Source: Nitrosomonas europaea (lineage in GTDB: Bacteria; Pseudomonadota; Gammaproteobacteria; Burkholderiales; Nitrosomonadaceae). From it: a DNA stretch of 32,000 bases. Below the pieces are notes generated by a model that was not told the DNA's origin, searched no databases, and was given only the letters and a program-made list of their open reading frames with translations. Below are positions 2,824 to 17,379 of the stretch, piece by piece (positions within the stretch are counted from its first letter, which is position 1; every line of letters begins with the position of its first letter). The position numbers and the translations under genes are program-made. Location: NCBI RefSeq assembly GCF_900167395.1, contig NZ_FUWK01000031.1, positions 3,594-35,593 of the forward strand, given 5' to 3'.

Positions 2824-2854
2824 GATTCCTCCCCGAGTTTTTGAGTGGTTGTTC

Positions 2855-4661: not shown

Positions 4662-4672
4662 TAGGAGGCGTT

Positions 4673-5590
4673 ATGGATCGATTCGAAAATATGAATGCGT
4701 TTGTGCGTGTTGTGGAAACAGGTAGCATCAGTGCGGCTGCCGATCGCATGGATATAGCCAAATCCGTTGTCAGCCGGCGTTTGAAGGAGCTTGAGGAACA
4801 TCTGGGGGTGGAATTGTTTCACCGCACCACGCGGCAAATGAATCTCACCGATAGCGGGCGCGCCTTTTATCAGCAATCCGTGCGCATCCTCGCTGATGTT
4901 CTCGAAGCCGAGCACGCCACGTCGCAGTTTCACGGCAGGTTGAAAGGTCATTTGAAAGTGGCGGTTCCGCTCAGTTTTGGCTTGATGCATCTGGGGGCCG
5001 CCATCTCCACCTTTCTGCAAACTCATCCGGATATCGAATTTGATCTGGATTTCAATGACCGGCAGGTCGATTTGCTGGCGGAAGGTTTTGATCTTGCCAT
5101 CCGCATCGCAAACCTGCCCGATTCCAGCTTGATCGCACGTCGCCTTGCACCTATTCAGGCTGTCATGTGTGCCAGCCCGGCATACCTTGAGCGCATGGGC
5201 ACGCCGCAAGCGCCGGAAGAACTCATCCGGCATCGCTGCCTGGTTTATAACCTGGTCAGTCACAGCGATAACTGGAATGTTTATGGCACCACGGGAGAGT
5301 TGATCAAAACCCGGATCATTCCCTATCTCAAGGCCAGTAACGGGGAATTTCTCCGTGATGCTGCCGTCGATGGTCTGGGTATCGTATTGCTGCCAACTTT
5401 TATCGTTTACCGGGAAATCCAGCGCGGTGCATTGATCCCGATATTGACCGGATACCACTACGCCCAGCTGGCTGCTTATGCCATTTACCCGCAAACCCGC
5501 CACCTCTCGCAGCGGGTTCGGGCATTTGTCGATTTTCTAAGCCAGCGGTTTGAAGGGATGCCTTACTGGGATGCGTGTCTGAATCAATAA
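4673..5590 (+). CDS. LysR family transcriptional regulator
   Basis: N-terminal helix-turn-helix MDRFENMNAFVRVVETGSISAAADRMDIAKSVVSRRLKELEEHLGVELFHRTTRQMNLTDSG plus a LysR substrate-binding domain. Start is the ATG at 4673 after TTAGGAGG. It is divergent from the pirin-doxX pair. Confidence 0.93.
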   Translation: MDRFENMNAFVRVVETGSISAAADRMDIAKSVVSRRLKELEEHLGVELFHRTTRQMNLTDSGRAFYQQSVRILADVLEAEHATSQFHGRLKGHLKVAVPLSFGLMHLGAAISTFLQTHPDIEFDLDFNDRQVDLLAEGFDLAIRIANLPDSSLIARRLAPIQAVMCASPAYLERMGTPQAPEELIRHRCLVYNLVSHSDNWNVYGTTGELIKTRIIPYLKASNGEFLRDAAVDGLGIVLLPTFIVYREIQRGALIPILTGYHYAQLAAYAIYPQTRHLSQRVRAFVDFLSQRFEGMPYWDACLNQ

Positions 5591-5599: not shown

Positions 5600-6595
5600 C
5601 TACTTCACCAGCCAGCGGGTCGCCATACCTGCGATCATGTGATCGTTGACATGGCAATGAAACAGCCAGTTGCCCGGTGAGCGGGGAACCATGTCGACGG
5701 AAGTCATGCTGGCCGGCATGATTTCGACGACATCGGTTCTGCGGCCATGATCGAGCACGGTTTGCCCGTGCCAGTGTACGGTATGGTTGTCCACTTCATT
5801 GCCCAGTGCGACCAGATGCCAGCGGACACGCTGTCCGCGTCTGGTTTCAAAACCGGACAGATTGCCGAAAATCCGGCCGTTGATCGCATGTTTCAGGCCG
5901 CTTTCCTCATCGTTTTCCTCGTTGAAGATCATGTACAGCGCGATGAATTCCTGATCGACATCGCGCGGAGCCGGATTCTTGTCTGAATACGCCTTGCCGG
6001 CAGCTGTGATGATGAGGGTTCCGATCAGTCCCAGATTGACTTCTTCCTCTGCCATCACGTGCGAGTGATACAGCCAGACGATGGATGAAGGATCACCCGG
6101 GCCGGGGCCGGCATCCTGGTCGACGATCCAGGTATAAGTGTAGCGCTCACCCGGTGGAATACTGCCACCCTTGCCGCCATCTGCACCCTCGTTGTCCTTA
6201 TCGTACATCACGCCGTGAGGGTGCATGGAAAGTGGCATATCGGTCTTGTTCAGAAAATGGATTTTGATGGTATCACCTACCGCAGCACGGATCGTGGGGC
6301 CCAGAATCCCCATCCACTCCGGCTGGGGCAGGGGGTGAGAGTAACTGCCATCGGTATAACCGATATAACGATATTTGGTGTAAGTCAGGGTTTTACCCCA
6401 GACTCCCAGATCACTTGCGAGATCGATCTGGTTTGCACCGGTCGGTGCGTAATTCCAGTCTGTTTTTTCCGCTGCAATCCAGTATTCCCGTACTTTCCCG
6501 GCTTGCGCCAGAGAGGATGACAGAGACAGGAAAATCAGGATAAACAGGGTCAGGCAGGAATACAAAAACGGGTTATTGTTTCTTCTGGTGTGCAT
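5600..6595 (-). CDS. Secreted two-domain multicopper oxidase (ceruloplasmin-like cupredoxin domains)
   Basis: Signal peptide MHTRRNNNPFLYSCLTLFILIFLSLSSSLAQA. REYWIAAEKTDWNYAP resembles the start of ceruloplasmin/factor VIII domains. Copper ligand motifs are present: HPHG, WLYHSHV, HTVHWHG and HCHVNDHMIAGM. At about 331 aa it has two cupredoxin domains, not three. Confidence 0.9.
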   Translation of the reverse strand: MHTRRNNNPFLYSCLTLFILIFLSLSSSLAQAGKVREYWIAAEKTDWNYAPTGANQIDLASDLGVWGKTLTYTKYRYIGYTDGSYSHPLPQPEWMGILGPTIRAAVGDTIKIHFLNKTDMPLSMHPHGVMYDKDNEGADGGKGGSIPPGERYTYTWIVDQDAGPGPGDPSSIVWLYHSHVMAEEEVNLGLIGTLIITAAGKAYSDKNPAPRDVDQEFIALYMIFNEENDEESGLKHAINGRIFGNLSGFETRRGQRVRWHLVALGNEVDNHTVHWHGQTVLDHGRRTDVVEIMPASMTSVDMVPRSPGNWLFHCHVNDHMIAGMATRWLVK

Positions 6596-6696
6596 GGATA
6601 GGTTCTTTAAAACAAATTTTTGATAACCATGATCGAAATACCAACGATTCAATCATGACTAAAGAATCTGCTGAAGGCGGAGACAGCCTGCGGTGA

Positions 6697-7440
6697 TCAG
6701 GCCGCAGACCGATTGAGAAAGTCAGTTTCGGAGTTGTGGCAATCACCCCGGGCAAGGGTTTCCACTGCCTTGCCGAAAGTGACCAGATCAGAACGCTCCA
6801 GCATGACGCAGTTTTTGCCGGTACGCTGACAATAGCGTCTGACGGTGAAAAAATCCTCATGATTGATACAGTCAACCGGGCAAATGATGCTGTCTACACG
6901 AGCGAGCAGGGCAAGCAGGCATTCACTGTTATCCTGTGCACCGCCACGAAACACCATGAAATGTCCCCCGGCAGCTTCAATCAACTGATGGTAATTCGGA
7001 TAGAGTGCAGCACGCCCACCGATACACAGGACAGACTGGCCCGCCAGATGATGACTGCTTTTCAGACGATCAATGGCCAGATAAGCATGATATTGATGCG
7101 GCAGGCCTGTTCTGATCCAGCGTAAATCCTCGTCATCAGATACTTGGGGGAGATGTGTGTCAGTACGGCTGTCGATCTGAACTTCAGTGTGAATAGAGTT
7201 TGCAGGTGAACGCCGGGTTGTATTCGCGGAAACAGTACCAGGCAAGGCCATACGGACCAGGTGATAAAGGTGCTTCAGCCGTGATTCCAGCTCTCGCCCC
7301 AGTTTCAGTGTGCGTTGTTTGTAGTGATGGAAAAGCGAATTGCAGAGGATTTCATTCTGATAGATTCCGGACAGTTTACCGGGATGGAGTTGCGCACCCT
7401 GATATGCCGGCTCCAGTACTGTTCTTTGGAAGAATTTCAT
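6697..7440 (-). CDS. DUF2325 domain protein (uncharacterised)
   Basis: The C-terminal about 95 aa (VLCIGGRAALYPNYHQLIEAAGGHFMVFRGG...VDSIICPVDCINHEDFFTVRRYCQRTGKNCVMLERSDLVTFGKAV) matches my memory of the DUF2325 pattern and is paralogous to the C-terminus of 11937..13256. The start is uncertain: ATG 7440 (MKFFQ) or GTG 7503. Confidence 0.7.
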   Translation of the reverse strand: MKFFQRTVLEPAYQGAQLHPGKLSGIYQNEILCNSLFHHYKQRTLKLGRELESRLKHLYHLVRMALPGTVSANTTRRSPANSIHTEVQIDSRTDTHLPQVSDDEDLRWIRTGLPHQYHAYLAIDRLKSSHHLAGQSVLCIGGRAALYPNYHQLIEAAGGHFMVFRGGAQDNSECLLALLARVDSIICPVDCINHEDFFTVRRYCQRTGKNCVMLERSDLVTFGKAVETLARGDCHNSETDFLNRSAA

Positions 7441-7592
7441 GATCGATTCCGTATCAGAAAAAAGGCTGGCTTGCCCGGGAGGAGGGGGCTGGCTTGCCGT
7501 CACAAATCACTGGAAGAGGAGAGAGAACTGCCAGTGATTACCAGGAAAGTTGATGTTTGTCAGCGTGAGAGTACATCATGCAGGTTTACGGA

Positions 7593-7790
7593 TTACTTCG
7601 TCAGTATCAGTTTGTCATTACGCGTCAGACGTAAATGATACTGTTCTCCTCGATGCTGAATGAGTACTTCTTTGCCTGTTCCAAACAGGTTTTCACTGCT
7701 GATCAGTTTGATGGGGAACTGTGCAAATGGCGAAACCAGCTCATTGTTTAGCCCGGGATCTGCGTGGTATTTGACATCGACCGAGTTCAT
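7593..7790 (-). CDS. hemP: HemP/HmuP family hemin-uptake small protein
   Basis: 65 aa. The C-terminus SSENLFGTGKEVLIQHRGEQYHLRLTRNDKLILTK is the characteristic HemP motif. A Fur box lies directly upstream. Confidence 0.9.
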   Translation of the reverse strand: MNSVDVKYHADPGLNNELVSPFAQFPIKLISSENLFGTGKEVLIQHRGEQYHLRLTRNDKLILTK

Positions 7791-7816: not shown

Positions 7817-7835
7817 GAGAATGATTATCATTATA
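7817..7835. promoter_or_regulatory. Fur box upstream of hemP
   Basis: GAGAATGATTATCATTATA matches the classical consensus GATAATGATAATCATTATC at 16 of 19 positions. It lies 27 bp upstream of the hemP start in an AT-rich spacer. Confidence 0.75.
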
Positions 7836-7909: not shown

Positions 7910-10003
7910 TCAGAACTGGTATGAAACGGCCAGTTTGTAGTTGCGTCCCGGATCTCTTAGCACGTTAAGGTGGCGCCGGTAATCTTTATCGGTCAGATTG
8001 TCGATTCCGAAATCCAGCCGTACACCTTTTAATGAGCCATTCTGCGGCAGCCAGGTCAGTGTCAGGTCATGCAATGTATAGCCAGGTGTAGGCGTTCCAC
8101 CGGTTGGCACACGATTCTGTGCTTCGATGATGCTGCTGCGCCAGCCGAGGGAAAGGTCGTAGGTCGGCCAGTTCAGACCGGCCATTACAATCCATCTATC
8201 CGGCTGGACATTGGACAATACTCCTCCATCCGTCCGGTTGTAGCCGCGCGTCTGGGAATAGGAGAAGCCGGTATAGCCGTATTTGGCTGCATAGTTTGCC
8301 TCTATTTCGAATCCTTCCAGTACGGCATCACGCACATTGTCACTGGTCGTGACGCCTCCTCTGCCAGGGTTACCGGGGACCGGGAAGAACACGAAGTCGA
8401 CCATCAGGTCGACGAAATCTTTGACCTTGTTATGAAAATAGGCTCCCCGGATAGCCAGGCGATCATCCTCATACAGCAGATCAGATTTCTGTATGCGTGC
8501 TCCCACCTCTTTGTTGAATGCTGTTTCCGGTTTGAGATTGGGGTTGGGTACGAACAGATTGGCACAGCCCGGGCCGCAGGTGAAATGGGTCCCGGTGGTA
8601 AACAGTTCACCCAGTGTCGGAGCACGGAATGCTTCACTGTAATTGCCGATGAGTGAAAACCATTCGGTAACCTTGAACAATCCGCCGATTTTGAAGTTGA
8701 CGCGGTCATTTTTATTGGCGCTGGTAGCCATGCCTTCGGCTTCACTGCGGAAATAGTCCCAGCGTACACCGGGAATCAGCGACAACCGATCCCACAACGT
8801 AATTTCATCCTGCAGGAACACACCTACTACATCTGCGTTACCCCGGGGGAATTCCGGTCGTATGGCACCGTTACGTTTTCCTTTGGCTTCATTGTGAAAA
8901 TAATCGACCCCGTAGGTAATCAATTGGGTGGCGAAGCTGCTCAGATCGAGACGTGAGCTGTTACGCGCATTGATACCCGTGGTGGAAAAATCGGTCTCGT
9001 CACGTCTCCGGTCAAGCAGTCGTTTCTCAAGGCTGTGAGTCGTGTTGTGATAAACCAGCACTTCCGGGTTCAACCAGGTATTGTCAGGATTCTCGTAGCG
9101 ATAGCGCAATGTGTAATTGCGTTGTTCGGTGTCCCGATCTACCAGGGTATCCGGGGTGGAAGCCGTTTGTGAATTGGCAGGGACTTTGCCAGTCTGATCA
9201 AAGGTCTGCGTGGAAAATGTGAAGCGATGATCGCCCGGTGTCCAGTTGAATTTGGCCAGACCGGCATAGGATTGAAACTGAGAGTTTTGCAGTTTGGAAC
9301 CATCACCATGGCGGATATCATCGGCCGCATTGCGGTAAGAGAAATCCAGCAGATAGTCGAACTCTTCTCCAACCAGACCGTAAATGCTGGTTCCGGGGAT
9401 ATATTGCTCATTCATACTCTGGAATCCTCCCCTGACCTTGATCCCGGAGCGTTCACCCGGGCGCAGAAGATCGGTTGCATCCAGCGTGGTGAAGGAAATG
9501 ACACCACCGAGGGCACCACTTCCCCAGATTGCAGAAGCCGGGCCGCGCATGACATCTACTCGCTTGAGCAGGCTCGGGTCAGTGAAAATACGGGCATTAT
9601 GCCCCCGGTTGAAATCCTGTCTGGCTCCATCCAGCAGGAACAGAATGCGATCATCGGCCATGCCGCGTATCGTCGGGCTGATGCCCAGGTTGCGTGGCCC
9701 TCCGCCCAGATCGATATTGGGCAGATAACGCAGCACATCACCGATATCGGCTGCCTGTCGGGTTCGTATCTGTTCGGTATCGACTACACTGACTGATTCC
9801 GGTATTTCACTGACCTTCCGGCTGGTACGGGTAGCGGTAACGGTGACTTCCTGCAGATTGGTAGCGGTAATGAGTTTGCCGGCAGGCTCAGTATCGGCCG
9901 ATGCAGTTTCTGCATGAGCAGGATGGATAAACAGCGAAAAAGTAACGGTGGTGGCAAGATAAACCTTCCAGCCAGCCGAACGACATTTGAACCTTGAAAA
10001 CAT
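7910..10003 (-). CDS. TonB-dependent outer-membrane receptor, heme/hemoglobin receptor type
   Basis: Signal peptide ending in AHA, TonB-box-like EVTVTATR, a plug domain and a C-terminal YKLAVSYQF. The FRAP and NPNL boxes diagnostic of heme receptors are present with an intervening His (AFRAPTLGELFTTGTHFTCGPGCANLFVPNPNLKPE, roughly 8526-8634). Confidence 0.9.
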   Translation of the reverse strand: MFSRFKCRSAGWKVYLATTVTFSLFIHPAHAETASADTEPAGKLITATNLQEVTVTATRTSRKVSEIPESVSVVDTEQIRTRQAADIGDVLRYLPNIDLGGGPRNLGISPTIRGMADDRILFLLDGARQDFNRGHNARIFTDPSLLKRVDVMRGPASAIWGSGALGGVISFTTLDATDLLRPGERSGIKVRGGFQSMNEQYIPGTSIYGLVGEEFDYLLDFSYRNAADDIRHGDGSKLQNSQFQSYAGLAKFNWTPGDHRFTFSTQTFDQTGKVPANSQTASTPDTLVDRDTEQRNYTLRYRYENPDNTWLNPEVLVYHNTTHSLEKRLLDRRRDETDFSTTGINARNSSRLDLSSFATQLITYGVDYFHNEAKGKRNGAIRPEFPRGNADVVGVFLQDEITLWDRLSLIPGVRWDYFRSEAEGMATSANKNDRVNFKIGGLFKVTEWFSLIGNYSEAFRAPTLGELFTTGTHFTCGPGCANLFVPNPNLKPETAFNKEVGARIQKSDLLYEDDRLAIRGAYFHNKVKDFVDLMVDFVFFPVPGNPGRGGVTTSDNVRDAVLEGFEIEANYAAKYGYTGFSYSQTRGYNRTDGGVLSNVQPDRWIVMAGLNWPTYDLSLGWRSSIIEAQNRVPTGGTPTPGYTLHDLTLTWLPQNGSLKGVRLDFGIDNLTDKDYRRHLNVLRDPGRNYKLAVSYQF

Positions 10004-10135: not shown

Positions 10136-11857
10136 TTAACGACCAAGTGCCTCTTTGTGCAGATTGATCCCCTGACGAATTTGTTCATCTACCCATTGAG
10201 TAAATAAGGGGTGGGGGGCAAAACCCTCACCCAGTTCGAATTCCAGTCCGGCAAGGAACCGCTTTTCCGGCCCGACGGAAGTGGTACGGGTAGGGATGAC
10301 GATCACCCTGTCACCTTGCTTGCTGGCTTCGGTGACCATGGCTCTTACTTTTTTGACCCAGGGTGCCCGTTTGTCCGGCCAATCCTCACGCCAGGTGGCA
10401 ACTTTGAATGCCTTGAATTTCTGGCCTCCCTGATCATGCATCTGGCTGGCAATGCTGTTGAGTTTCTCCAGCCATTCATCATTTTTCCGATCATCCTGAG
10501 TGCCGTGTGCGGTCAGAATCACTGTTTCTCTGGCCGGATCTTTGGAGAGTGCCAGTACGCGATCGAACAATGCACTGGCAAACAGGGGGTTGTCTTCGTA
10601 GCCGCCTGTCCAGATAACCGGCAGAGACGTCAGGATTCTGGGAACCGGTGTGCTGGATTTTGCATGTCCCCCATGCCCTCCATGGCTGCCGTGTCCACTG
10701 TTGTTGTCATGTATGTGGTCGTCCTGATTTTCGATATCCAGACCGGCCAGATAACCGATTTCATTGCGATAGGAGCTGCGGCTGGCAAAGGCGCTGACAA
10801 CAATGGCTGCTTTTGCGCCGCGCTGTTCCAGTTTGTGCAGGGCACGTTCGATCGTGTATGGATCCGCCATGGAAAAGGCAAATTCGATTTTGTAGCGTTT
10901 CATCAATGGCTCTACCGCTACGCGCAGATTTTCATTCCAGTGAAAGTCGGAGCCATGAGCAAACAGGATGACACCGGTATCTTCTTCGGCCAGAGGCAGA
11001 TTGCGGCTGGCTTCGCGCTCCATCCACATGGCCAGATGCTGTGGTTCGATCTCGAAGTGATTGAGTGCTGCGTTTTCAGGCAACAGCCGTTCCAGCCGTG
11101 ATTCGAGTGACATCATGCTGTCGTATTTGGGGCCGAGGGCGAATGCAATCACCTGATTTTTATTGTTTTTGGTAGCCGTGCCCAAAGATGACAATGCAGT
11201 GGCAAGCTGCTGTTTTGTCTTGTTGCCATAACTTTCCGGTTCTTCGTCTTTTTGTGCTTCCAGAAGAATCAGAGAGTTGATCGAACGAAAACTGACTCCC
11301 TGTGATGCCTGTTTGACAATGCGCATCCAGTCGTCATACATCGCCCGTCGGTGAGTATCGTTCTGTGCCCCGTAACCCACTACCAGCAGATGTTGCTGAG
11401 CGGTATGCTGCATGCCGCGCAAGCGGGTGGCGAGTGCCTCGACAGCGAAATAGCTTTCTCCGTAAGGTTTCGTGAAAGTCACAGGGATCGTCTGGTTTTC
11501 TTCCGTGACCAGTGTGCGGATGAGCTGATAGCGCGGTTCTGCAGCAGAAATGAATAGTGGCAGTACGACGATACGGCCTATATTCTGCTGGTGCAGGCTG
11601 GCGAGACCGGATTGCAGCGTTTGCCGGGTGCGCTCGTCAGTAACAAAGACCAGTGCAGCCGGGTGATTGGCTGAGAACGATGCAAAAGCATCACGGATTT
11701 CTTCATTACCGACAAATCCCCGGTCAGCTGCAACTATCAGGAAACCGGTCTGATCGGCCGGTTTCAGTTCGGCCGCGTGCGCCGATCCTGCAAGCAGAGC
11801 GAACATCAATAAATAAAACCATGCAGCGGTTTGGATTGTTTTAATCCAGAAAAGCAT
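10136..11857 (-). CDS. Secreted protein with four CbiX/SirB-like (class II chelatase fold) modules and a His-rich linker
   Basis: Start is the ATG at 11857 after GGAGGA. Signal peptide MLFWIKTIQTAAWFYLLMFALLAGSAHA. The two C-terminal modules keep the chelatase HG(S/T) motif (VILFAHGSDFHW; VILTAHGTQDDR) and a CbiX-like tail (GEGFAPHPLFTQWVDEQI). The two N-terminal modules are degenerate (IVAADRGF; LVVGYGAQND). The linker is DDHIHDNNSGHGSHGGHGGH (10664-10717). Confidence 0.75.
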   Translation of the reverse strand: MLFWIKTIQTAAWFYLLMFALLAGSAHAAELKPADQTGFLIVAADRGFVGNEEIRDAFASFSANHPAALVFVTDERTRQTLQSGLASLHQQNIGRIVVLPLFISAAEPRYQLIRTLVTEENQTIPVTFTKPYGESYFAVEALATRLRGMQHTAQQHLLVVGYGAQNDTHRRAMYDDWMRIVKQASQGVSFRSINSLILLEAQKDEEPESYGNKTKQQLATALSSLGTATKNNKNQVIAFALGPKYDSMMSLESRLERLLPENAALNHFEIEPQHLAMWMEREASRNLPLAEEDTGVILFAHGSDFHWNENLRVAVEPLMKRYKIEFAFSMADPYTIERALHKLEQRGAKAAIVVSAFASRSSYRNEIGYLAGLDIENQDDHIHDNNSGHGSHGGHGGHAKSSTPVPRILTSLPVIWTGGYEDNPLFASALFDRVLALSKDPARETVILTAHGTQDDRKNDEWLEKLNSIASQMHDQGGQKFKAFKVATWREDWPDKRAPWVKKVRAMVTEASKQGDRVIVIPTRTTSVGPEKRFLAGLEFELGEGFAPHPLFTQWVDEQIRQGINLHKEALGR

Positions 11858-11936: not shown

Positions 11937-13256
11937 TTATGTCGTGGTTTCAACTGTATCGACGGGAGAACTGTTGATACTGGCCTGGCCTGATGTGATT
12001 TTTGTCAGTGCTGCTGCAAAGCTGGAAACACCGGTACCCTTGAACAGCAGGCAGGGTTTATGCCCCAGCCGGCAAAGCCTTTTGACCTGATAGTAAGCGG
12101 CGTGACTGACGTAATCAGTCGGGCAGATCACTGCTGCAGCGCCATAGATCATTTCCGGCAAGCGCGAAAGTGCATCTTCCTGGCCGCCATCATGGTGTGA
12201 TAATTTGAGGCCAAGCTGTCTGGCAAGTGTGCGGTATTGCGGCAGCAGCGTGGACCGGCCGCCTACGCACAGAATGCACTCGTAAGCAGCCATTTTCGTT
12301 TCGGTTGTATCCGCTGTTTCTGTATCTGTGGTGCTGCCAGAATTGAGGGTCAGCAGCAGATTTTCCAGTGTATCCCGCTCGACGCGAAGGGTATCGCGTT
12401 CGTGATAGAGCTCGGTCAGGTTGTGGCAGGCATTTTTGAGTGATTGCTTGAGATCATCGGCCTGTGCTGCTTTGATCTGCAGCTGCTCGTTTTCCACCGT
12501 TAGTTGCATCAGGCGCTGACCCATTCGCAGTATGGCCTGGCCTGATTCCAGTGTTTCCAGCCGTTGGCGGGTGGTCTCGCTTTCTCGCCGGGATTGCTGC
12601 AACTGCTTGATTTCAGCCGCGGCCTGTTGCAGTTGCTGGCGCAGGCGCGATTCGGTCTGTACGTGCTTCTCTCTGATCTGTTCCAGTTGCCCGGCCAGTT
12701 CCTTCAGCATTTGTTCTGCCTGGTTGAGCCGGTGCTGCGTGGCTGACAGCTCGGCAACCGCTTCATGCATGTGCATGTGAACCCTGTCATGGATCTGCTC
12801 TCTGCCTTCGGAGCTGATCCGTTTGTGGGTGAGTGCTGCCCATAATGGACCGGCTATTCTTTCGTTGGTAAAACAGGTTTCCCAAAGCGCCAGCACCTCG
12901 CTGTCGGTTTTGGCGGCGTCGAACTGTTTAATGTGGCTTTCGTACAATCTGTCCAGATATTTATGAATCGTTTCCGATACGACGTTTCTGGAGGTTACGC
13001 GGCAGACTGCTTCAACGTGCAGATCGTGCGCATTGTTTATCGAAGCTTTGAAATGAAAGCGTTTGGCAAAACGCTCGAGATCCGAGGCGGGCAGACAAAG
13101 GCCGATGACAGGACAGTGATAGGTTCTGCTCAGTTCCCAGATTTTTGAACGCTTCACCGGGGGAGAAGGGGAATCGGTTACCATAATCTCGGGCGATCCA
13201 TCTCCTGCTAATAAAGCATCGATTCCCGACTGTCGCAGAATGGCAGGTGCATGCAT
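11937..13256 (-). CDS. DUF2325 domain protein with a long central coiled coil (uncharacterised)
   Basis: Start is the ATG at 13256 after GAGGAGA. The Gln/Leu/Glu-rich region of roughly 160 aa (from about LSATQHRLNQAEQMLKELAGQLEQIREKH... to ...ERDTLENLLLTL) looks like heptad repeats. The C-terminus ILCVGGRSTLLPQYRTLARQLGLKLSHHDGG...AVICPTDYVSHAAYYQVKRLCRLGHKPCLLFKGTGVSSF is a DUF2325-like domain. Confidence 0.75.
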   Translation of the reverse strand: MHAPAILRQSGIDALLAGDGSPEIMVTDSPSPPVKRSKIWELSRTYHCPVIGLCLPASDLERFAKRFHFKASINNAHDLHVEAVCRVTSRNVVSETIHKYLDRLYESHIKQFDAAKTDSEVLALWETCFTNERIAGPLWAALTHKRISSEGREQIHDRVHMHMHEAVAELSATQHRLNQAEQMLKELAGQLEQIREKHVQTESRLRQQLQQAAAEIKQLQQSRRESETTRQRLETLESGQAILRMGQRLMQLTVENEQLQIKAAQADDLKQSLKNACHNLTELYHERDTLRVERDTLENLLLTLNSGSTTDTETADTTETKMAAYECILCVGGRSTLLPQYRTLARQLGLKLSHHDGGQEDALSRLPEMIYGAAAVICPTDYVSHAAYYQVKRLCRLGHKPCLLFKGTGVSSFAAALTKITSGQASINSSPVDTVETTT

Positions 13257-13322
13257 ACGGTATCTCCTCGTGGTGAAAATATCAGTCTGGATCAGACAGA
13301 ATGGATTGCATTTAATACTAAT

Positions 13323-13341
13323 AATAACAATTATCATTAAC
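13323..13341. promoter_or_regulatory. Candidate Fur box upstream of the DUF2325/CbiX-like/heme-receptor gene string
   Basis: AATAACAATTATCATTAAC matches the Fur consensus at 14 of 19 positions. It lies 67 bp upstream of the 13256 start in an AT-rich stretch. Confidence 0.5.
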
Positions 13342-13411
13342 GTAATCAATTGTGTTGTGTATTGCAGCCGATTCTGCATGAATCATGTGGAGCTTCATTT
13401 GTACGGCGAGG

Positions 13412-13476: not shown

Positions 13477-14718
13477 ATGAAGAAGTCGACCTATTCTTTC
13501 CCCACGCTGGCCGGATTCTTTCTCACACTCGCTTCTGTGGTTGCAATCGCAGCCGGGCCAGGTACCGGCGACCCAACTCAGCAACCGTCTGTCATGCAAG
13601 CCTCAAAGTCCCCAAAGACCGCACTTGCGGTGGGAGTAACACTGGATCAGGAAGGGCAGTTGTGGCTGGCAAAAGTGATTGATCAGCGCTTGCTGGTTTC
13701 CAGATCAGAAGACGATGGCAAGCATTTTTCCGAATCAGTGACGGTTACTCCTGTGCCGGAAAACATAGGCAATGATGGCGAAAATCGTCCCAAGATCCAG
13801 GTGGCACGTGATGGCACCGTGCTGGTCACCTGGACGGAGCTGCTGGCGGAAAAATATGCCGGAAATATAAAGTTCTCGCGTTCGACCGATTCAGGTCGGA
13901 CGTTCTCAGAGCCAATCGTTCTGAACGATGATGGCCGTGTGACCAGTCACCGCTTCGATTCCCTGGCAATCGACGGAAAAGGAAGGGTGGTGGTGGCCTG
14001 GCTGGATGCCAGAGATCGTGATGCAGCGAGGGAAAAAGGGGAGGAGTTCAAGGGGGTCTCACTCTACAGCAGTCAGTCGTTCGACAATGGCGCGCACTTT
14101 GAGCCAAACCGGCAAATTCATCAGCATACCTGCGAATGCTGCCGGACTGCGCTTACCTGGACCAGCGAGGGGCCGGTCGTGCTGCTGCGAAATATTTTCG
14201 GCACCAATACCCGTGATTTTGCCGTGGCCAGCCTGGATAAAGTGGAAGAAGGTGTCAGAAGAGTCACCCGCGATGAGTGGCAGATCGACGCCTGCCCGCA
14301 CAACGGTGGCAGTCTTGCGACAGATGGCAGGGGGCAATTGCATCTGACCTGGTTCACCAGCGGCACCGCTGCACAGGGGCAGTTCTATAAACGGATCAGC
14401 GGCAACCAGGAATCGGAACCCATGGCGCTGGGTGATATGGATGCGCAGCCCAACCATGCTGCAGTGGTGGCGCATGGTGAAACCGTCATCCTCACCTGGC
14501 GCGAATTTGACGGAAACGTGTATTCCGCAAAGATGATGTTTTCGAATGACGGTGGCGAAACCTGGAGTGAGCCATGGCGCCTGATGTTGTCTGCCGGCGC
14601 AAACGATTACCCGGTACCACTCATCAGTGACAGTAAAGCTCTGGTTGTATGGAATACCGAAAATGAGGGTTTGCGGGTTTTGTCCGTTGAAAGAGTCATC
14701 AACCGATCCGACGGCTGA
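13477..14718 (+). CDS. Secreted BNR/Asp-box repeat beta-propeller protein (sialidase-fold-like) with a conserved Cys cluster
   Basis: N-terminal signal peptide. Four Asp-box-like repeats: SRSEDDGKHFS, SRSTDSGRTFS, SQSFDNGAHFE and SNDGGETWS. Motifs HTCECCR (14131-14142) and ACPHNGG (14293-14301). Paralogous to 24553..25791. Confidence 0.8.
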   Translation: MKKSTYSFPTLAGFFLTLASVVAIAAGPGTGDPTQQPSVMQASKSPKTALAVGVTLDQEGQLWLAKVIDQRLLVSRSEDDGKHFSESVTVTPVPENIGNDGENRPKIQVARDGTVLVTWTELLAEKYAGNIKFSRSTDSGRTFSEPIVLNDDGRVTSHRFDSLAIDGKGRVVVAWLDARDRDAAREKGEEFKGVSLYSSQSFDNGAHFEPNRQIHQHTCECCRTALTWTSEGPVVLLRNIFGTNTRDFAVASLDKVEEGVRRVTRDEWQIDACPHNGGSLATDGRGQLHLTWFTSGTAAQGQFYKRISGNQESEPMALGDMDAQPNHAAVVAHGETVILTWREFDGNVYSAKMMFSNDGGETWSEPWRLMLSAGANDYPVPLISDSKALVVWNTENEGLRVLSVERVINRSDG

Positions 14719-14826
14719 GAATCTTTAAAACAATAATAAGCAGCAGGCGGCTTATGACATGGATCGCAATGGCATCAGGCGCTGCTGCAAATACTAATTA
14801 CCAATAAAAATCGAAAGGATCAGACC

Positions 14827-17379
14827 ATGAAGCAGTTCCCTCTGGCACTGATTGGCCTGCTTTGCGCCTCATCAGCCTGGGCAGCTCAAGATGTCGAACA
14901 ACAGAAACAGTTTTCCCGCAAAAATCTTTCAACACAGGCAGACAACAGTTCAGACGGAATCCGGGTATCAGGCGCAAACGGGGAGCACGCAGGGGAGCAG
15001 TTGGCGCAAGCGGCGGACGAACAGGTGCAAACCGGTAAATCGAGCAATAGTGACAACCTGAATGAACAGAAAGAGAAGGATAGTGGTGAGCCGGCTGGCC
15101 AGAATGAAACTGTTTTCAGGGAAATGGTAATTACAGGTGAAATAGAGCGGGATTCGCACTTTACTTCGCCTTCGATGCGCGTAACCCGGGCGCAGGTCGA
15201 ACAGCAGAATGCGCAAACTACCGAAGAAGTGCTCAAATACATGCCCAGCCTGCAAATACGTCAGCGCTACGTGGGCGATCCGAATGGTGTGTTGGGGATT
15301 CGCGGAGCCGATATGTTTTCAACTGCGCGCAGCATGGTTTATGCCGATGGTCTGCCGTTGCACAACTTTCTGCAGGCTTCTTTCAATGGTGCGCCGCGCT
15401 GGTCGCTGGTCGGTCCTAACGAAATCGACTCGGTTGATGTCGTTTATGGCCCTTTCTCGGCCGAGTACAGCGGCAACTCGATAGGGGGCGTTGCCAATAT
15501 CAGAACGCGCATGCCGCACAAGCAGGAATTTTACTTTGAAGGCAGCCTGTTCATTCAGCCCTACAAGAATTACGGGGAGGATAAAGGAACATTCATTGGT
15601 GACCGGCAGTATTTTTCCTACGGCAACAGGATTCAGGACAAGTTTACGGTGTTCCTGGCTTACAACCGGCTGGAGGCTCAGGGTCAGCCAATGTCTTATT
15701 TTATTGATAATACCGGGTTGTCCAACGTGCCTGGAGGAACACCGGTGACGGGGGGTATCAGGACACCGGATACGCGCGGTACACCCAGTATCATTTATGG
15801 TGATACCGGTCCCGAAAAAGTGAATACTCACTTGTTCAAGGGTAAATTCGGGTACGACATCACTTCCGATCTGCAGGCGTTGTTTACCGTGGCGTATGAA
15901 GAGCGTACCCGCAACCAGAACCATCCGAGCAACTACCTGTATACGGCGAACGGGGATTATTTCTGGGGAGGGAATGCGCCTACCTGTAATTCGGTTGCCA
16001 CCTGTTCGACTCCGGGTAATGCTTCTCTGGATGGCACACGCTTCGATGTGGTGCGCAGTGGTTTCGGTGAAAGTCGTGACAAGCGTGAGACGCTGAATCT
16101 GGGTTTGTCGCTGCGCGGTGCGCTGACGCCCGACTGGGATGTCGATACCACATTCAGCTATTTCGATGTGTTGAAGGATATTCGTGCGACGGCGTTTTTC
16201 AATCATGCCGATCCGGGCAATACCGGTGCCGGGCAATTGCAGGATTTCCGCAAATTCAACTGGTGGAATTACGATCTCAAGCTGAGTACGCCCATGCTGC
16301 TGGGTTACGACAAACTGTCGTTTCTGGCCGGATACCATTTTGACCAGTACAACCTCAGTTTCCGGCAATATAGCCTGACCAGTTATGAAGATCTGACCCG
16401 GGGTGCATTGCAGGCCAACCGCAATAATGATGGCCGCACATCGACTCATGCGATCTTTGCCCAATCCATGTTCCGCTTCATGCCGGACTGGGATATTACC
16501 GCCGGTGTGCGTCAGGAATGGTGGGAAGCAAGCAAGGGAGTCGCCTCCAATGTGGCCGTGCCCGATCGCACCGAAACAGCCACTTCTCCGAAGGTTTCAC
16601 TGGGGTATGAGCCTGGACAGTGGAAATTCCGCTATTCCTTCGGGCGTGCGCACCGTTTCCCGGTGATTGCAGAGCTTTTTCAGTCACTTGGTACACCTAC
16701 CAGTATTCTGGTTGCGAATGCGACGCTCAAACCTGAAAATGGCGTGCATCATAATTTTATGATGGAGTACGGGTTACCGAAGGGTTATGTTCGTGTCAAC
16801 GTATTTCGGGATGACATCAAGGACGCCATCCGCCAGATCACTTCCGCCTCGGGAGCACTTACAACCAGCGCTTTCCAGAATATCGGTGAAGTTGGTACAA
16901 CCGGTGTGGAGCTGATCTTCGAACAGCGAAATATTCTGGGCTCACGGTTCGATTTTATGTTCAACGGTACCTGGATGAACTCAAAAGTGGAAGACGGGCC
17001 GGTCGTGAGATTTACCGAATCAACCGGCGTGCCTGCCAACTACAGTCTGACCGGGAAACAGGTCATTCGTCTGCCACACTGGCGAGTCAATGTTTTCGGT
17101 ACTTACCATGTGACGGATGCCTGGGATGTTTCCCTGTCCGGCCGCTATACCAGCGATTCCTATAATGATCCTGATAACAGGGACTATAAGAACAACGTAT
17201 TCGGTGCCCAGAGCGATTTCTTCTTCATGGATTTCAAGACCAGCTACCGGTATCGGTTCAACAACGGGCTGAAAAGCCGATTCTCATTCGGTATCAGCAA
17301 CCTCAACAACGACAAGGCCTGGGTATTTCATCCCTATCCGCAGCGTACCTATCTGCTCGAAGCTGCGTTCAGTTATTGA
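14827..17379 (+). CDS. TonB-dependent outer-membrane receptor with a long low-complexity N-terminal extension
   Basis: Signal peptide MKQFPLALIGLLCASSAWA, about 85 aa of Gln/Glu/Asp/Asn/Ser-rich sequence, then TonB-box-like ETVFREMVITG, a plug (LGIRGADMFSTARSMVYADGLPL) and a C-terminal strand LLEAAFSY. Confidence 0.9.
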   Translation: MKQFPLALIGLLCASSAWAAQDVEQQKQFSRKNLSTQADNSSDGIRVSGANGEHAGEQLAQAADEQVQTGKSSNSDNLNEQKEKDSGEPAGQNETVFREMVITGEIERDSHFTSPSMRVTRAQVEQQNAQTTEEVLKYMPSLQIRQRYVGDPNGVLGIRGADMFSTARSMVYADGLPLHNFLQASFNGAPRWSLVGPNEIDSVDVVYGPFSAEYSGNSIGGVANIRTRMPHKQEFYFEGSLFIQPYKNYGEDKGTFIGDRQYFSYGNRIQDKFTVFLAYNRLEAQGQPMSYFIDNTGLSNVPGGTPVTGGIRTPDTRGTPSIIYGDTGPEKVNTHLFKGKFGYDITSDLQALFTVAYEERTRNQNHPSNYLYTANGDYFWGGNAPTCNSVATCSTPGNASLDGTRFDVVRSGFGESRDKRETLNLGLSLRGALTPDWDVDTTFSYFDVLKDIRATAFFNHADPGNTGAGQLQDFRKFNWWNYDLKLSTPMLLGYDKLSFLAGYHFDQYNLSFRQYSLTSYEDLTRGALQANRNNDGRTSTHAIFAQSMFRFMPDWDITAGVRQEWWEASKGVASNVAVPDRTETATSPKVSLGYEPGQWKFRYSFGRAHRFPVIAELFQSLGTPTSILVANATLKPENGVHHNFMMEYGLPKGYVRVNVFRDDIKDAIRQITSASGALTTSAFQNIGEVGTTGVELIFEQRNILGSRFDFMFNGTWMNSKVEDGPVVRFTESTGVPANYSLTGKQVIRLPHWRVNVFGTYHVTDAWDVSLSGRYTSDSYNDPDNRDYKNNVFGAQSDFFFMDFKTSYRYRFNNGLKSRFSFGISNLNNDKAWVFHPYPQRTYLLEAAFSY

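What the first reader, a model, noticed from the sequence alone, without database searches (positions are those of the whole stretch)
10136..11857. Secreted four-module CbiX-like chelatase-fold protein with a His-rich linker, encoded directly upstream of a heme-type receptor
Class II chelatases (CbiX, SirB, CbiK, HemH) are normally cytoplasmic enzymes that insert metal into tetrapyrroles. This 573-aa protein has a clear Sec signal peptide and four tandem CbiX-like half-domains. The first two are degenerate at the HGS motif, and the last two keep AHGS/AHGT. A DDHIHDNNSGHGSHGGHGGH linker lies between modules 3 and 4.

The gene lies between a DUF2325 gene and an FRAP/NPNL heme-type TBDR, in a string preceded by a Fur-like box. 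The window has no hmuSTUV-type heme ABC transporter and no heme oxygenase.

One reading is a periplasmic tetrapyrrole-binding or dechelating protein that takes iron from heme, or hands over the tetrapyrrole, after outer-membrane import. A periplasmic CbiK variant that binds heme is known from Desulfovibrio vulgaris, so a periplasmic member of this fold has precedent. I am not aware of a description of a four-module His-linker architecture next to a heme receptor.
Basis: partly seen in the sequence, partly recalled or inferred. Interest (0 to 1): 0.75.

Follow-up and report, generated by a model that had tools for sequence, protein, structure and literature searches.

The report
Periplasmic double chelatase-like protein for heme iron
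Nitrosomonas europaea NE1539 is an exported protein made of two back-to-back copies of the enzyme fold that normally puts metals into heme-like rings; across many bacterial phyla its relatives sit beside heme-import genes, so it most likely handles imported heme or its iron in the periplasm, a role nobody has tested.

Summary
The gene is on the minus strand (10136-11857) and is NE1539 of N. europaea. It has a good Shine-Dalgarno site and a Sec-type signal peptide. It encodes four beta-alpha half-domains that form two class II chelatase units created by tandem duplication.

The His-rich stretch is not an inter-module linker. It is a flexible loop inside module 3, at the same position as the His-rich region of M. 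jannaschii CfbA.

The canonical His/Glu/His metal triad is missing. Instead H301, M330, H451, D492 and nearly always R490, E491, W493, H549 are conserved across about 90 distant cluster representatives. These include a stand-alone ~300-aa version of the C-terminal unit.

Relatives in at least ten phyla lie next to heme-type TonB receptors, HemP, HmuY hemophores and FTR1 iron permeases. No heme ABC transporter or heme oxygenase lies nearby.

Best reading (confidence about 0.4): periplasmic extraction of iron from imported heme. Rivals are a heme shuttle, a Cu/Fe-handling partner of FTR1 or the multicopper oxidase, and a forward periplasmic chelatase. I rate it a new variant of a known kind, interest 0.65.

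The parts
13317..13349 (-). Fur-like box (13317-13341, 4-5 mismatches to the 19-bp consensus) overlapping a promoter-like TTGATT-17-TATTAT. This is the likely iron-repressed promoter of NE1538-NE1540.
11937..13379 (-). NE1538: a cytoplasmic coiled-coil protein with a C-terminal DUF2325 domain. The true start is probably the Met near 13256, downstream of the promoter.
   Evidence: NE numbering from PMC10781756
10136..11857 (-). NE1539: a 573-aa exported protein with two tandem class II chelatase-fold units (four half-domains). This is the subject of the finding.
11774..11857 (-). Sec-type signal peptide, residues 1-28, with predicted cleavage AHA|A.
   Evidence: family-wide check
10994..11758 (-). 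N-terminal chelatase-like unit (modules 1+2, residues 34-288). It has no His at the HGS positions (DRG and YGA instead) but has its own near-invariant set: D45 R46 G47 N51 P100 M249 W278.
10139..10993 (-). C-terminal chelatase-like unit (modules 3+4, residues 289-573). This is the conserved core. H301, G302, M330, H451, G452 and D492 are invariant; R490, E491, W493, R524 and H549 are nearly invariant. The unit also exists as a stand-alone exported ~300-aa protein in other bacteria.
10664..10723 (-). His-rich flexible loop inside module 3 (residues 379-398, six His). It lies at the same position as the His-rich region of M. jannaschii CfbA. The (GGH)n copy number varies between near-identical strains.
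   Evidence: PMC8179277
7910..10003 (-). NE1540: a ShuA-type TonB-dependent heme/hemoglobin receptor with FRAP...His...NPNL.
7817..7835 (.). Near-consensus Fur box GAGAATGATTATCATTATA (2 mismatches), between NE1540 and hemP.
7593..7790 (-). HemP, the hemin uptake protein (65 aa). It is probably NE1541.
6697..7503 (-). Second DUF2325 protein (268 aa; probably NE1542).
5600..6652 (-). NE1543: a small multicopper oxidase and a candidate periplasmic ferroxidase. It is linked to this gene family only within Nitrosomonadaceae.

Best explanation
NE1539 is exported by Sec into the periplasm. There it works downstream of the Fur-regulated heme receptor NE1540.

**Structure (shown).** It is not a biosynthetic sirohydrochlorin chelatase. 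It is a duplicated class II chelatase-fold protein whose C-terminal unit (modules 3+4) is the working core.

**Proposed steps (inferred).**
1. Heme brought in by the receptor binds in the cleft between modules 3 and 4.
2. That cleft is lined on one wall by H301 and M330. On the other wall it is lined by H451 and the R490-E491-D492-W493 motif, with H549 nearby.
3. After reduction of the iron, Fe(II) is pulled out of the ring towards the His/carboxylate side. This is ferrochelatase chemistry run backwards.
4. The flexible His-rich loop captures the iron.
5. The iron is handed to an inner-membrane iron route. In many relatives this would be an FTR1 permease. In N. europaea it possibly involves the co-transcribed multicopper oxidase NE1543 acting as a ferroxidase.
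6. The porphyrin is left behind.

**N-terminal unit.** It has lost the His residues but keeps its own invariant cleft residues. It probably holds the porphyrin or docks a partner.

**What is shown:** fold, export signal, conserved residues, iron and heme gene context. **What is inferred:** heme binding, dechelation, iron hand-off.
For: **Fold.** Full-length and C-unit AF2 models (pLDDT about 85, pTM 0.83) match only class II chelatases at the top of Foldseek/PDB. These include the periplasmic CbiKP 2xvx (E 5e-7), SirB (TM 0.67-0.72), HemH and FetB.

**Export.** Sec signal and SD site. 48 of 51 distant full-length relatives have hydrophobic N-termini and 7 have a lipobox. Among the 36 stand-alone C-unit relatives, 27 have hydrophobic N-termini and 12 have a lipobox. 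A Tat-like motif occurs in 1 of 51 full-length relatives and in none of the 36 stand-alone relatives.

**Heme and iron context in the window.**
- NE1540 scores 551 bits on TonB-hemin, and ShuA is its closest solved structure at E 4e-93.
- HemP is present at E 4.5e-18.
- There are two Fur boxes.
- NE1538, NE1539 and NE1540 are co-regulated in a published transcriptome (PMC10781756).

**Context across phyla.**
- A TBDR lies within two ORFs in 40 of 78 loci.
- Outside Nitrosomonadaceae, 26 of 39 loci of at least 9 kb carry a TBDR, HemP or HmuY.
- 22 of 29 nearest receptors hit TonB-hemin at E<=1e-80, and no other family passes. The six weakest matches are the receptors that sit next to an HmuY hemophore.
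- TBDR-HmuY-this gene are tightly colinear in Sericytochromatia, Bacteroidota and Ignavibacteria. This gene follows the receptor/hemophore pair as the dechelatase HmuS does in hmu operons (there ordered hmuY-hmuR-hmuS), and no HmuS-sized ORF is present (PMC12583661).
- FTR1 iron permeases are present in 9-10 loci, and ExbBD in 7.
- In a census of 140 same-strand neighbours, FTR1 and DUF2325 rank first. No heme oxygenase, HemS, Peripla_BP_2 or FecCD family appears among the 25 commonest of the 108 families matched; the rest of the list was not shown.
- Stand-alone C-units lie in hemP-TBDR-X, TBDR-X and DtxR-X-OMP-FTR1 arrangements.

**Residues.** H301, M330, H451 and D492 are invariant in 87 representatives clustered at 50% identity or less. 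They sit at the strand-end positions that line the cleft in all class II chelatases. H301 aligns with the first catalytic His of CbiX. M330 aligns with Glu42 of CfbA.

**Precedent for chelatase-family dechelation.** HmuS releases Fe(II), which then enters via an Fe(II) importer (PMC12583661, PMC6460266).
Against: - No biochemical data exist for any member of this family.
- The canonical His/Glu/His triad is incomplete in every module.
- FetB, the best-studied exported class II homologue, inserted Mn and Co into porphyrin but showed no reverse activity with hemin in vitro (PMC13065792).
- E. coli YfeX, once proposed as a dechelatase, was refuted (PMC3215433).
- No periplasmic reductant or proton source is identified. 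HmuS needs NADH.
- N. europaea has no FTR1 gene in the window, and I could not search the rest of its genome for one, or for hemO, hemS or hmuTUV.
- In several Nitrosospira genomes the gene is solitary.
- One stand-alone locus (L086) has FTR1 and a DtxR-type repressor but no heme marker.
- A 3-His + Met + carboxylate set also resembles Cu/Fe sites of FTR1 partners such as P19 (my recollection, not tested).
Confidence: 0.4

Rival explanations
1. It is a periplasmic heme-binding shuttle or buffer with no catalysis. The C-unit cleft binds intact heme, for example with His/Met axial ligation by H451 or H301 and M330. It then passes the heme on: to an unidentified inner-membrane importer, directly to periplasmic heme consumers such as cytochrome c maturation, or it simply detoxifies incoming heme.
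For: - The heme context is the same as for the main explanation.
- An invariant Met plus invariant His residues at cleft positions resemble the Met/His heme ligation seen at the chelatase-like head/neck interface of HmuS (PMC12583661).
- D. vulgaris CbiKP, the top structural match of the C-unit, is a periplasmic heme-binding protein (PMC13065792 text).
- The incomplete catalytic triad favours binding over catalysis.
- N. europaea has an exceptional periplasmic demand for heme c (PMC3050691).
Against: - No FecCD/Peripla_BP_2-type heme ABC transporter was seen next to the gene: none is among the 25 commonest families in a census of 140 same-strand neighbours from the related loci.
- The commonest non-receptor transporter neighbour is an iron permease (FTR1), not a heme permease.
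- The conserved carboxylates R-E-D-W and the His-rich loop look like features for handling free metal.
Confidence: 0.2
2. It is a periplasmic metal-handling protein with no tetrapyrrole involved. The His/Met/carboxylate cleft and the His-rich loop bind Fe, possibly with a Cu cofactor. The protein receives metal that has crossed the outer membrane and feeds it to FTR1-type permeases or the multicopper oxidase. This would be analogous to P19/FtrA, EfeO or FetP.
For: - FTR1 is adjacent in 9-10 loci. These include a stand-alone C-unit locus with a DtxR-type repressor, an outer-membrane barrel and FTR1 but no heme marker.
- A multicopper oxidase is in the N. europaea operon.
- SCO1/SenC neighbours occur in three Thiotrichales loci.
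- His-rich loops are present in 27 of 51 full-length and 23 of 36 stand-alone relatives. CfbA's equivalent His-rich region lies in a metal-inserting enzyme (PMC8179277).
- Invariant Met and Met-Met motifs (M330, M248-M249) are typical of Cu(I) sites (general knowledge).
Against: - The dominant neighbours are heme-specific: ShuA-type receptors, HemP and HmuY hemophores.
- The receptor scores far below the cutoffs of the copper, zinc-piracy and B12 receptor models: 74 vs 472, 38 vs 950, and 87-91 vs 600-836 bits.
- Regulation looks Fur-type.
- The fold is a tetrapyrrole-binding one.
Confidence: 0.2
3. It is a forward chelatase working outside the cytoplasm. Like P. gingivalis FetB, it inserts a metal (Fe, Mn, Co or Ni, collected by the His-rich loop) into scavenged metal-free porphyrins, or it swaps metals in imported metalloporphyrins.
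For: - FetB has the same fold and is exported, and it catalyses Mn/Co insertion into porphyrin (PMC13065792).
- The first catalytic His is retained in modules 3 and 4.
- The His-rich loop is at the same position as in the Ni-chelatase CfbA (PMC8179277).
Against: - Fur-repressed expression together with a heme receptor and HemP implies an iron-acquisition role, not heme synthesis.
- FTR1 neighbours imply that free iron is a product.
- The second His of the triad is missing.
Confidence: 0.1
4. The database annotation is right: it is a cytoplasmic sirohydrochlorin or cobalt chelatase (CbiX/SirB) of siroheme or B12 biosynthesis.
For: Pfam CbiX hit above cutoff on module 1. Sources name it 'sirohydrochlorin chelatase' or 'cobalamin biosynthesis protein CbiX'.
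Against: - It has a signal peptide.
- It falls far below the NCBIfam equivalog cutoffs (about 31 vs 120 bits).
- The triad is absent.
- No tetrapyrrole-biosynthesis neighbours occur in the window, and none rank among the 25 commonest neighbour families in the ~65 related loci censused.
- N. europaea was classed as a B12-uptake organism rather than a B12 producer in a comparative-genomics survey (PMC2667541).
Confidence: 0.02

Closest known systems
P. gingivalis IhtB/FetB (exported CbiK-like lipoprotein of the ihtABCDE locus; PDB 9B86)
   Same: - Class II chelatase fold outside the cytoplasm.
- Encoded next to a TonB-dependent receptor in an iron/heme locus.
- Long proposed to be a reverse ferrochelatase (PMC12094164).
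- Structural match to the C-unit: Foldseek E 2.6e-4, TM about 0.55-0.59.
   Different: - FetB is a single two-domain unit of the CbiK lineage (37% identical to Salmonella CbiK). NE1539 is a duplicated unit of the CbiX/SirB lineage, about 15% identical to FetB in the structural alignment.
- NE1539 has a different invariant residue set (His/Met/His/Asp).
- FetB's locus has an ABC transporter, whereas relatives of NE1539 pair with FTR1.
- FetB showed forward Mn/Co chelation and no dechelation in vitro (PMC13065792).
Desulfovibrio vulgaris periplasmic CbiK (CbiKP; PDB 2XVX)
   Same: - Periplasmic class II chelatase homologue that binds heme.
- Best Foldseek hit of the C-unit (E 5e-7).
   Different: - It is CbiK-type and a single unit.
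- It retains chelatase activity.
- I know of no link to a heme TonB receptor, HemP or HmuY.
- Sequence identity is 14%.
HmuS of Bacteroidota hmuYRSTUV operons (class I, CobN-like heme dechelatase)
   Same: - Chelatase-family protein acting on imported heme outside the cytoplasm.
- It yields PPIX + Fe(II), which enters through a separate iron transporter (PMC12583661, PMC6460266).
- Relatives of NE1539 likewise follow the heme receptor/hemophore pair, in the order TBDR-HmuY-X (hmu operons run hmuY-hmuR-hmuS).
- HmuS binds a heme with Met/His ligation at a class II chelatase-like domain interface.
   Different: - HmuS is unrelated in sequence and size: a membrane-bound CobN homologue that is NADH-dependent.
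- NE1539 is a soluble 60-kDa class II protein with no evident reductant.
- The relationship is functional analogy (possible non-orthologous displacement), not family membership.
CfbA / CbiXS / SirB (cytoplasmic class II chelatases; PDB 6M25, 5ZT7, 6JV6)
   Same: - Closest by sequence profile (E about 1e-6 to 3e-8).
- Same half-domain topology.
- The first catalytic His is conserved.
- The His-rich flexible insert is at the identical position to that of type I CfbA (PMC8179277).
   Different: - Those enzymes are cytoplasmic and biosynthetic.
- They have the complete His9/Glu42/His75 triad. In NE1539 module 3 these positions are His301/Met330/Tyr363 (Phe in most relatives).
- NE1539 is exported, duplicated and iron-regulated.
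Periplasmic partners of FTR1-type iron permeases (EfeUOB with the disputed deferrochelatase EfeB; P19-cFtr1; FtrABCD)
   Same: - A periplasmic protein encoded next to an FTR1 permease in iron-regulated loci. FTR1 occurs in 9-10 related loci, some fused to cytochrome c.
- EfeB was proposed to strip iron from heme in the periplasm (cited in PMC12094164).
   Different: - The folds differ (DyP peroxidase, cupredoxin-like or P19 vs chelatase fold).
- No Pfam hit to those families.
- No FTR1 gene lies in the N. europaea window.

Membership tests
Class II chelatase superfamily (CbiX/SirB/CbiK/HemH fold) | Two Rossmann-like beta-alpha-beta-alpha-beta-alpha-beta-alpha domains enclosing a cleft | tested here: met
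   The AF2 secondary structure shows four such domains, that is two units. The top Foldseek hits are exclusively class II chelatases.
Class II chelatase superfamily (CbiX/SirB/CbiK/HemH fold) | Sequence-profile match to a curated chelatase family above its cutoff | tested here: met
   Pfam CbiX PF01903 scores 42.2 bits against a cutoff of 22, on module 1. The Ferrochelatase model scores 28.4 against 27, on module 3. 13 of 15 C-unit relatives hit CbiX.
Functional sirohydrochlorin/cobalt/nickel chelatase (SirB, CbiX, CfbA equivalogs) | His-Glu-His metal-binding triad (CfbA His9/Glu42/His75) | tested here: not met
   Only the first His is kept (H301, H451). The Glu42 position is an invariant Met330. 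The His75 position is Tyr363 (Phe in most relatives). Modules 1 and 2 have no His at all (PMC8179277).
Functional sirohydrochlorin/cobalt/nickel chelatase (SirB, CbiX, CfbA equivalogs) | Score above the NCBIfam equivalog cutoff; cytoplasmic location; biosynthetic gene neighbourhood | tested here: not met
   The protein scores 31.7 and 30.3 bits against a cutoff of 120. It has a Sec signal peptide. Its neighbours are iron and heme uptake genes.
Extracytoplasmic CbiK-type heme-binding chelatases (CbiKP, IhtB/FetB) | Export signal and genetic link to outer-membrane or iron transport genes | tested here: met
Extracytoplasmic CbiK-type heme-binding chelatases (CbiKP, IhtB/FetB) | CbiK-lineage sequence, single two-domain unit | tested here: not met
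   There is no CbiK Pfam hit. The best profile matches are SirB and CfbA. Identity to 2xvx and 9b86 is 14-16% in structural alignments. The protein is a duplicated unit.
Extracytoplasmic CbiK-type heme-binding chelatases (CbiKP, IhtB/FetB) | Binds heme or porphyrin | not testable with these tools
   This needs purified protein and spectroscopy.
HmuS-type heme dechelatase | CobN/ChlH (class I) homology, about 1400 aa, membrane-bound | tested here: not met
   The protein is 573 aa and has the class II fold.
HmuS-type heme dechelatase | Encoded with HmuY hemophore and HmuR-type receptor | tested here: met
   This is met in relatives, not in the window. TBDR-HmuY-X is colinear in L048, L053, L058, L071 and L074. 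HmuY is present in 8 loci.
HmuS-type heme dechelatase | Converts heme to PPIX + Fe(II) | not testable with these tools
   An enzyme assay is required.
Fur-regulated proteobacterial hemin-uptake locus (hemP-hemR type) | ShuA/HemR-type TonB receptor, HemP and a Fur box | tested here: met
   TIGR01785 scores 551 bits. ShuA 3fhh matches at E 4e-93. HemP PF10636 matches at E 4.5e-18. The Fur box matches 17 of 19 positions.
Fur-regulated proteobacterial hemin-uptake locus (hemP-hemR type) | HemS/heme oxygenase and HemTUV periplasmic binding protein/ABC permease | tested here: not met
   These are absent from the ORFs of the 32-kb window that were scanned. They are also absent from the 25 commonest families in the neighbour census of related loci. 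The rest of the N. europaea genome could not be searched.

The most novel reading that the evidence does not exclude
This family would be a cofactor-independent, soluble periplasmic 'reverse ferrochelatase' of the class II lineage. Together with a heme TonB receptor (plus or minus an HmuY hemophore) and an FTR1-type permease or multicopper ferroxidase, it would form a complete heme-iron piracy route in which heme never enters the cytoplasm and no heme oxygenase is needed. The route would be widespread in aerobic environmental bacteria, including ammonia oxidisers. It would be the class II counterpart and non-orthologous replacement of HmuS.
Probability: 0.3. Interest if true: 0.8.

Novelty: new variant of a known kind. 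Interest (0 to 1): 0.65.

Why it matters
Three points make this worth pursuing.

1. **A large family appears to be misannotated.** In the 50%-identity representative library, 255 clusters match at E<1e-30. Members occur in at least ten phyla. Public databases label them 'sirohydrochlorin chelatase' or 'cobalamin biosynthesis CbiX', although they are exported and sit in heme and iron uptake loci. That label distorts B12 and siroheme pathway reconstructions.

2. **An old question becomes testable in a soluble protein.** Whether a class II chelatase can run backwards to take iron out of heme has been open since IhtB was described in 2000. The only proven chelatase-family dechelatase, HmuS, is a large membrane-bound class I enzyme. 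This family has a clear invariant residue set (H301, M330, H451, E491/D492, H549) ready for mutagenesis.

3. **It bears on nitrifier iron supply.** N. europaea makes no siderophores yet needs very large amounts of iron and heme c. A heme-scavenging route would change how iron supply to nitrifiers in soil and wastewater is understood.

Tried and rejected
- **Biosynthetic CbiX/SirB.** Rejected: signal peptide, missing triad, sub-cutoff equivalog scores, non-biosynthetic context.
- **Zinc, copper or B12 receptor system.** Rejected for NE1540. ZnuD scores 38 bits against a cutoff of 950, TonB-copper 74 against 472, and BtuB 87-91 against 600-836. TonB-hemin scores 551 against 317.
- **'Four equal tandem CbiX repeats'.** Replaced by 'duplicated two-domain unit'. 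BLASTP of the two halves as single sequences is only marginal (E 0.022); the homology needs profiles.
- **A split form of the protein.** I asked whether the 347-aa gene after a stand-alone C-unit (L083) is a detached N-unit. There is no similarity.
- **A TBDR-chelatase fusion.** The apparent 1294-aa ORF in L033 is a wrong-frame artefact of my crude ORF caller in high-GC DNA. Neighbour counts are therefore lower bounds.
- **Window ORF 4661-5503(-).** It has no family hit. The real gene there is a LysR regulator on the + strand.
- **Literature.** Ten full-text searches found no description of this four-module family or of NE1539. The only mention is as a 'hypothetical protein' in a transcriptome study. 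The N. europaea genome paper and the iron-starvation stimulon paper are not held.
- **Model coordinates.** I could not read coordinates of the AF2 models, so no distances between H301, M330, H451, E491 and H549 were measured.
- **DUF2325.** It has no solved relative.
- **L071 and L074.** An upstream phosphonate-type ABC system is present, but its meaning is unclear.

Full report
**Observation.**

The ORF exists as described, but on the minus strand: 10136-11857, 573 aa. Its ATG is preceded by GGAGG at a 4-nt spacing. The protein is 100% identical to Nitrosomonas europaea CAD85450/Q82UF1. This is NE1539 in the published numbering, where it is called a hypothetical protein of a predicted operon NE1538-NE1543 (PMC10781756).

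The N-terminus MLFWIKTIQTAAWFYLLMFALLAGSAHA|AELK has the n/h/c layout of a Sec signal peptide with an AXA site. It has no lipobox and no twin-arginine motif. The protein contains no cysteine.

**Anatomy.**

An AlphaFold2 model built on 27 family members is confident: pLDDT 84.8, pTM 0.83. Confidence is low only in the signal-peptide junction and in residues 380-401. The model contains four beta-alpha-beta-alpha-beta-alpha-beta-alpha modules.

Foldseek against the PDB puts only class II chelatases at the top: B. subtilis HemH, SirB, CbiK, FetB and CbiKP. A separate model of the C-terminal half (pLDDT 84.6) hits D. vulgaris periplasmic CbiK best (E 5e-7) and SirB with TM 0.67-0.72.

Profile-profile comparison shows that the N-terminal pair and the C-terminal pair are homologous as units: 96% probability, E 3e-9. 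M1~M3 gives 82% and M2~M4 gives 84%. M1 vs M2 is not detectable. The protein is therefore a tandem duplication of a two-domain chelatase unit, not four equal repeats.

The His-rich stretch (residues 379-398, six His) is misplaced in the finding. Strand beta4 and helix alpha4 of module 3 follow it. HMM alignments place it exactly on the His-rich region of M. jannaschii CfbA. That region is known to be intrinsically flexible (PMC8179277).

**Catalytic residues.**

The class II metal site is His9/Glu42/His75 in CfbA numbering (PMC8179277). H301 aligns with the first His (alignment to 3lyh). The Glu42 position is Met330, and the His75 position is Tyr363, which is Phe in most relatives. Modules 1 and 2 have none of these residues. 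The canonical triad is therefore not met.

What is conserved instead is striking. I examined 51 full-length and 36 stand-alone representatives from a 50%-identity library.
- H301, G302, M330, H451, G452 and D492 are invariant.
- N308, R490, E491, W493, R524, G529, P548 and H549 are nearly invariant.
- The N-unit keeps D45, R46, G47, N51, P100, M249 and W278.

Both units are thus under selection, with different chemistry.

**Family.**

- The close relatives found by the word-indexed search are all Nitrosomonadaceae or unnamed Betaproteobacteria.
- An exhaustive profile search finds 1086 clusters at E<1e-3 and 255 at E<1e-30.
- Genome scanning finds full-length four-module members in many lineages: Beta- and Gammaproteobacteria, Myxococcota, Sericytochromatia, Nitrospirota, Acidobacteriota, Bacteroidota, Ignavibacteria, Verrucomicrobiota, Latescibacterota and KSB1.
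- A ~300-aa stand-alone form equals the C-terminal unit. It carries Sec or lipoprotein signals and the same invariant residues. 13 of 15 scanned members hit Pfam CbiX.
- No solved structure belongs to the family. The best PDB sequence hits are SirB and CfbA at E about 1e-6 to 3e-8.

**Context in the window.**

On the minus strand the order is as follows.

| Feature | Coordinates | Evidence |
|---|---|---|
| Promoter-like element overlapping a Fur-like box | 13317-13349 | |
| NE1538 (coiled coil + DUF2325) | 11937-13379 | |
| NE1539 | 10136-11857 | |
| NE1540 receptor | 7910-10003 | |
| Near-consensus Fur box GAGAATGATTATCATTATA (2 mismatches) | 7817-7835 | |
| Second DUF2325 protein | 6697-7503 | |
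| Multicopper oxidase NE1543 | 5600-6652 | |

NE1540 is a ShuA-type heme receptor. TIGR01785 scores 551 bits against a cutoff of 317. ShuA 3fhh matches at E 4e-93 over the full length. FRAP-His-NPNL is present.

NE1538, NE1539 and NE1540 were reported as co-downregulated in simulated microgravity (PMC10781756). No heme ABC transporter, HemS or heme oxygenase is encoded among the larger ORFs of the window that I scanned with Pfam, which are most of its ORFs of 110 aa or more.

**Context elsewhere.**

I compared 80 genomic loci using a simple ORF caller and all-against-all clustering.
- A TonB receptor lies within two ORFs of the gene in 40 of 78 loci. It is usually on the same strand, immediately upstream or downstream.
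- Outside Nitrosomonadaceae, 26 of 39 loci of at least 9 kb contain a TBDR, HemP or HmuY.
- Of the 29 nearest receptors outside the N. europaea group, 22 hit the TonB-hemin model at E<=1e-80. No other NCBIfam family passes that threshold.
- The six weakest matches are the receptors that sit beside an HmuY hemophore.
- In three Sericytochromatia, one Bacteroidota and one Ignavibacterium contig the order is TBDR-HmuY-this gene, tightly packed on one strand. There is no HmuS-sized ORF. In the Bacteroidota contig an FTR1 permease follows.
- HemP occurs in 14 loci, FTR1 (sometimes fused to cytochrome c) in 9-10, ExbB/ExbD in 7 and DUF2325 in 21. The multicopper oxidase occurs only within Nitrosomonadaceae.
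- A Pfam census of 140 same-strand neighbours puts FTR1 and DUF2325 first. It shows no heme oxygenase, HemS, Peripla_BP_2 or FecCD family among the 25 commonest of the 108 families matched.
- Stand-alone C-units are found in hemP-TBDR-X, TBDR-X and DtxR-like-X-barrel-FTR1 arrangements. One lies after a two-component system.
- The link is not universal. Several Nitrosospira genomes have the gene alone.

**Mechanism.**

Shown: an exported, duplicated chelatase-fold protein whose genes travel with heme receptors, hemophores, HemP and iron permeases under iron-type regulation.

Inferred: heme delivered to the periplasm binds in the module 3/4 cleft. H301 and M330 occupy the positions of CfbA His9 and Glu42 on one wall. 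H451 and E491/D492 occupy the equivalent strand-end positions on the other wall. This gives a pseudo-symmetric pair of sites like the two sites of the CfbA homodimer.

I consider iron extraction (reverse ferrochelatase chemistry) the single most likely function, at about 0.4. The His-rich loop would act as the exit or collection arm, and FTR1 would be the iron sink. In N. europaea the sink would be the multicopper oxidase plus an unknown permease. My reasons are these.
- The recurrent transporter partner is an iron permease, not a heme permease.
- The gene follows the receptor/hemophore pair as HmuS does in hmu operons. HmuS is a proven chelatase-family dechelatase whose Fe(II) product enters through a separate iron importer (PMC12583661, PMC6460266).

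Against this reading:
- there is no biochemical evidence;
- the triad is incomplete;
- the reductant is unknown;
- FetB showed no dechelation in vitro (PMC13065792);
- the earlier YfeX dechelatase claim failed (PMC3215433).

**Rivals.**

- **(i) Non-catalytic heme shuttle or buffer with His/Met ligation (0.2).** This fits the invariant Met and the CbiKP precedent. It does not explain the FTR1 partnership or the lack of heme permeases.
- **(ii) Tetrapyrrole-independent Fe/Cu-handling partner of FTR1 or the multicopper oxidase (0.2).** This fits the L086 locus, the Met/His/carboxylate set, the SCO1 neighbours and the His-rich loop. It does not explain the heme-specific neighbours.
- **(iii) Forward periplasmic chelatase like FetB (0.1).**
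- **(iv) The database annotation as biosynthetic CbiX (0.02).** This is effectively excluded.

**Comparison and novelty.**

Exported class II chelatase homologues linked to heme and iron uptake are known (IhtB/FetB, CbiKP). So is dechelation by a chelatase-family protein (HmuS). The kind is therefore not new.

What is new:
- a separate CbiX/SirB-derived lineage;
- the duplicated four-half-domain architecture and its stand-alone core;
- a distinctive invariant His/Met/His/Asp set replacing the classical triad;
- a CfbA-like His-rich loop in an exported protein;
- a broad cross-phylum association with ShuA-type receptors, HemP, HmuY and FTR1.

Ten full-text searches found no description of it.

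**Limits.**

- SignalP was not available.
- Model coordinates could not be inspected.
- The rest of the N. europaea genome could not be searched.
- Neighbour counts rest on crude ORF calls that fail in high-GC contigs.
- The HMM-based residue equivalences to CfbA come from low-scoring alignments (29-37 bits).

Noticed in passing
window 10664-10690 (minus strand; residues 389-398 of NE1539): The Gly-Gly-His part of the His-rich loop is a copy-number polymorphism. Proteins at least 99% identical from other N. europaea strains or assemblies carry one, two or three GGH units, giving total lengths of 570, 573 or 576 aa. The DNA is an imperfect 9-bp repeat, CATGGAGGG CATGGGGGA CAT. This suggests slippage and tolerance, or tuning, of loop length.
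   Followed up: partly
window 11937-13379 (-) and 6697-7503 (-): Two DUF2325 paralogues. NE1538 is the first gene after the upstream Fur-like box. The other (probably NE1542) is the second gene after the near-consensus Fur box, following hemP. Neither has a signal peptide, and the longer one has an SMC-like coiled coil. DUF2325 co-occurs with the chelatase-like gene in 21 related loci, 8 of them outside Nitrosomonadaceae, often together with HemP. It has no solved homologue. It may be an unrecognised cytoplasmic component or regulator of this uptake system.
   Followed up: partly
window 13477-17379 (+) and 19995-25791 (+): This is an iron-uptake island. It holds three more TonB-dependent receptors (14827-17379, 19995-22118, 22349-24475; the last two are tandem paralogues). 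It also holds two BNR/sialidase-like beta-propeller proteins (13477-14718, 24526-25791), each adjacent to a receptor, and a thioredoxin-fold AhpC/TSA-like gene (25788-26285). The receptor+BNR pair is conserved next to the NE1538 operon in other Nitrosomonas (clusters c6 and c7). The role of the BNR proteins is unknown.
   Followed up: no
L033 12930-14825, L037 3008-4987, L073 3306-5330: These are FTR1 iron permeases fused to an N-terminal mono-heme cytochrome c domain (about 630-675 aa). They lie near the chelatase-like gene in unrelated Proteobacteria and in an unclassified MAG. This suggests a built-in redox step at the permease.
   Followed up: partly
L061 4607-6397 and 7860-9593 (Nitrospirota MAG): Two full-length four-module paralogues lie in tandem on one strand, separated by two small genes.
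   Followed up: no
L071 1302-3794 and L074 2255-4750: In the Bacteroidota and Ignavibacterium loci, the TBDR-HmuY-chelatase-like cluster is preceded by another TBDR. It is also preceded by a phosphonate-type substrate-binding protein with an ABC ATPase and a BPD_transp_1 permease. The substrate is unknown.
   Followed up: no
window 5600-6652 (-): The multicopper oxidase NE1543 is a small form of about 320-350 aa. It has Cu-oxidase_3 and Cu-oxidase_2 domains only. A TRR-containing N-terminal region precedes a hydrophobic stretch, which may be a Tat signal. The annotated TTG start is probably too far upstream.
   Followed up: no
window 490-2889 (-), 26613-30395 (+): Fatty-acid beta-oxidation-type genes flank the iron island in this chemolithoautotroph: a large acyl-CoA dehydrogenase, a FadB-like 3-hydroxyacyl-CoA dehydrogenase/enoyl-CoA hydratase, and a thiolase. 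A nucleotidyltransferase (17490-17870) and a ParD-type antitoxin (31209-31583) are also present.
   Followed up: no
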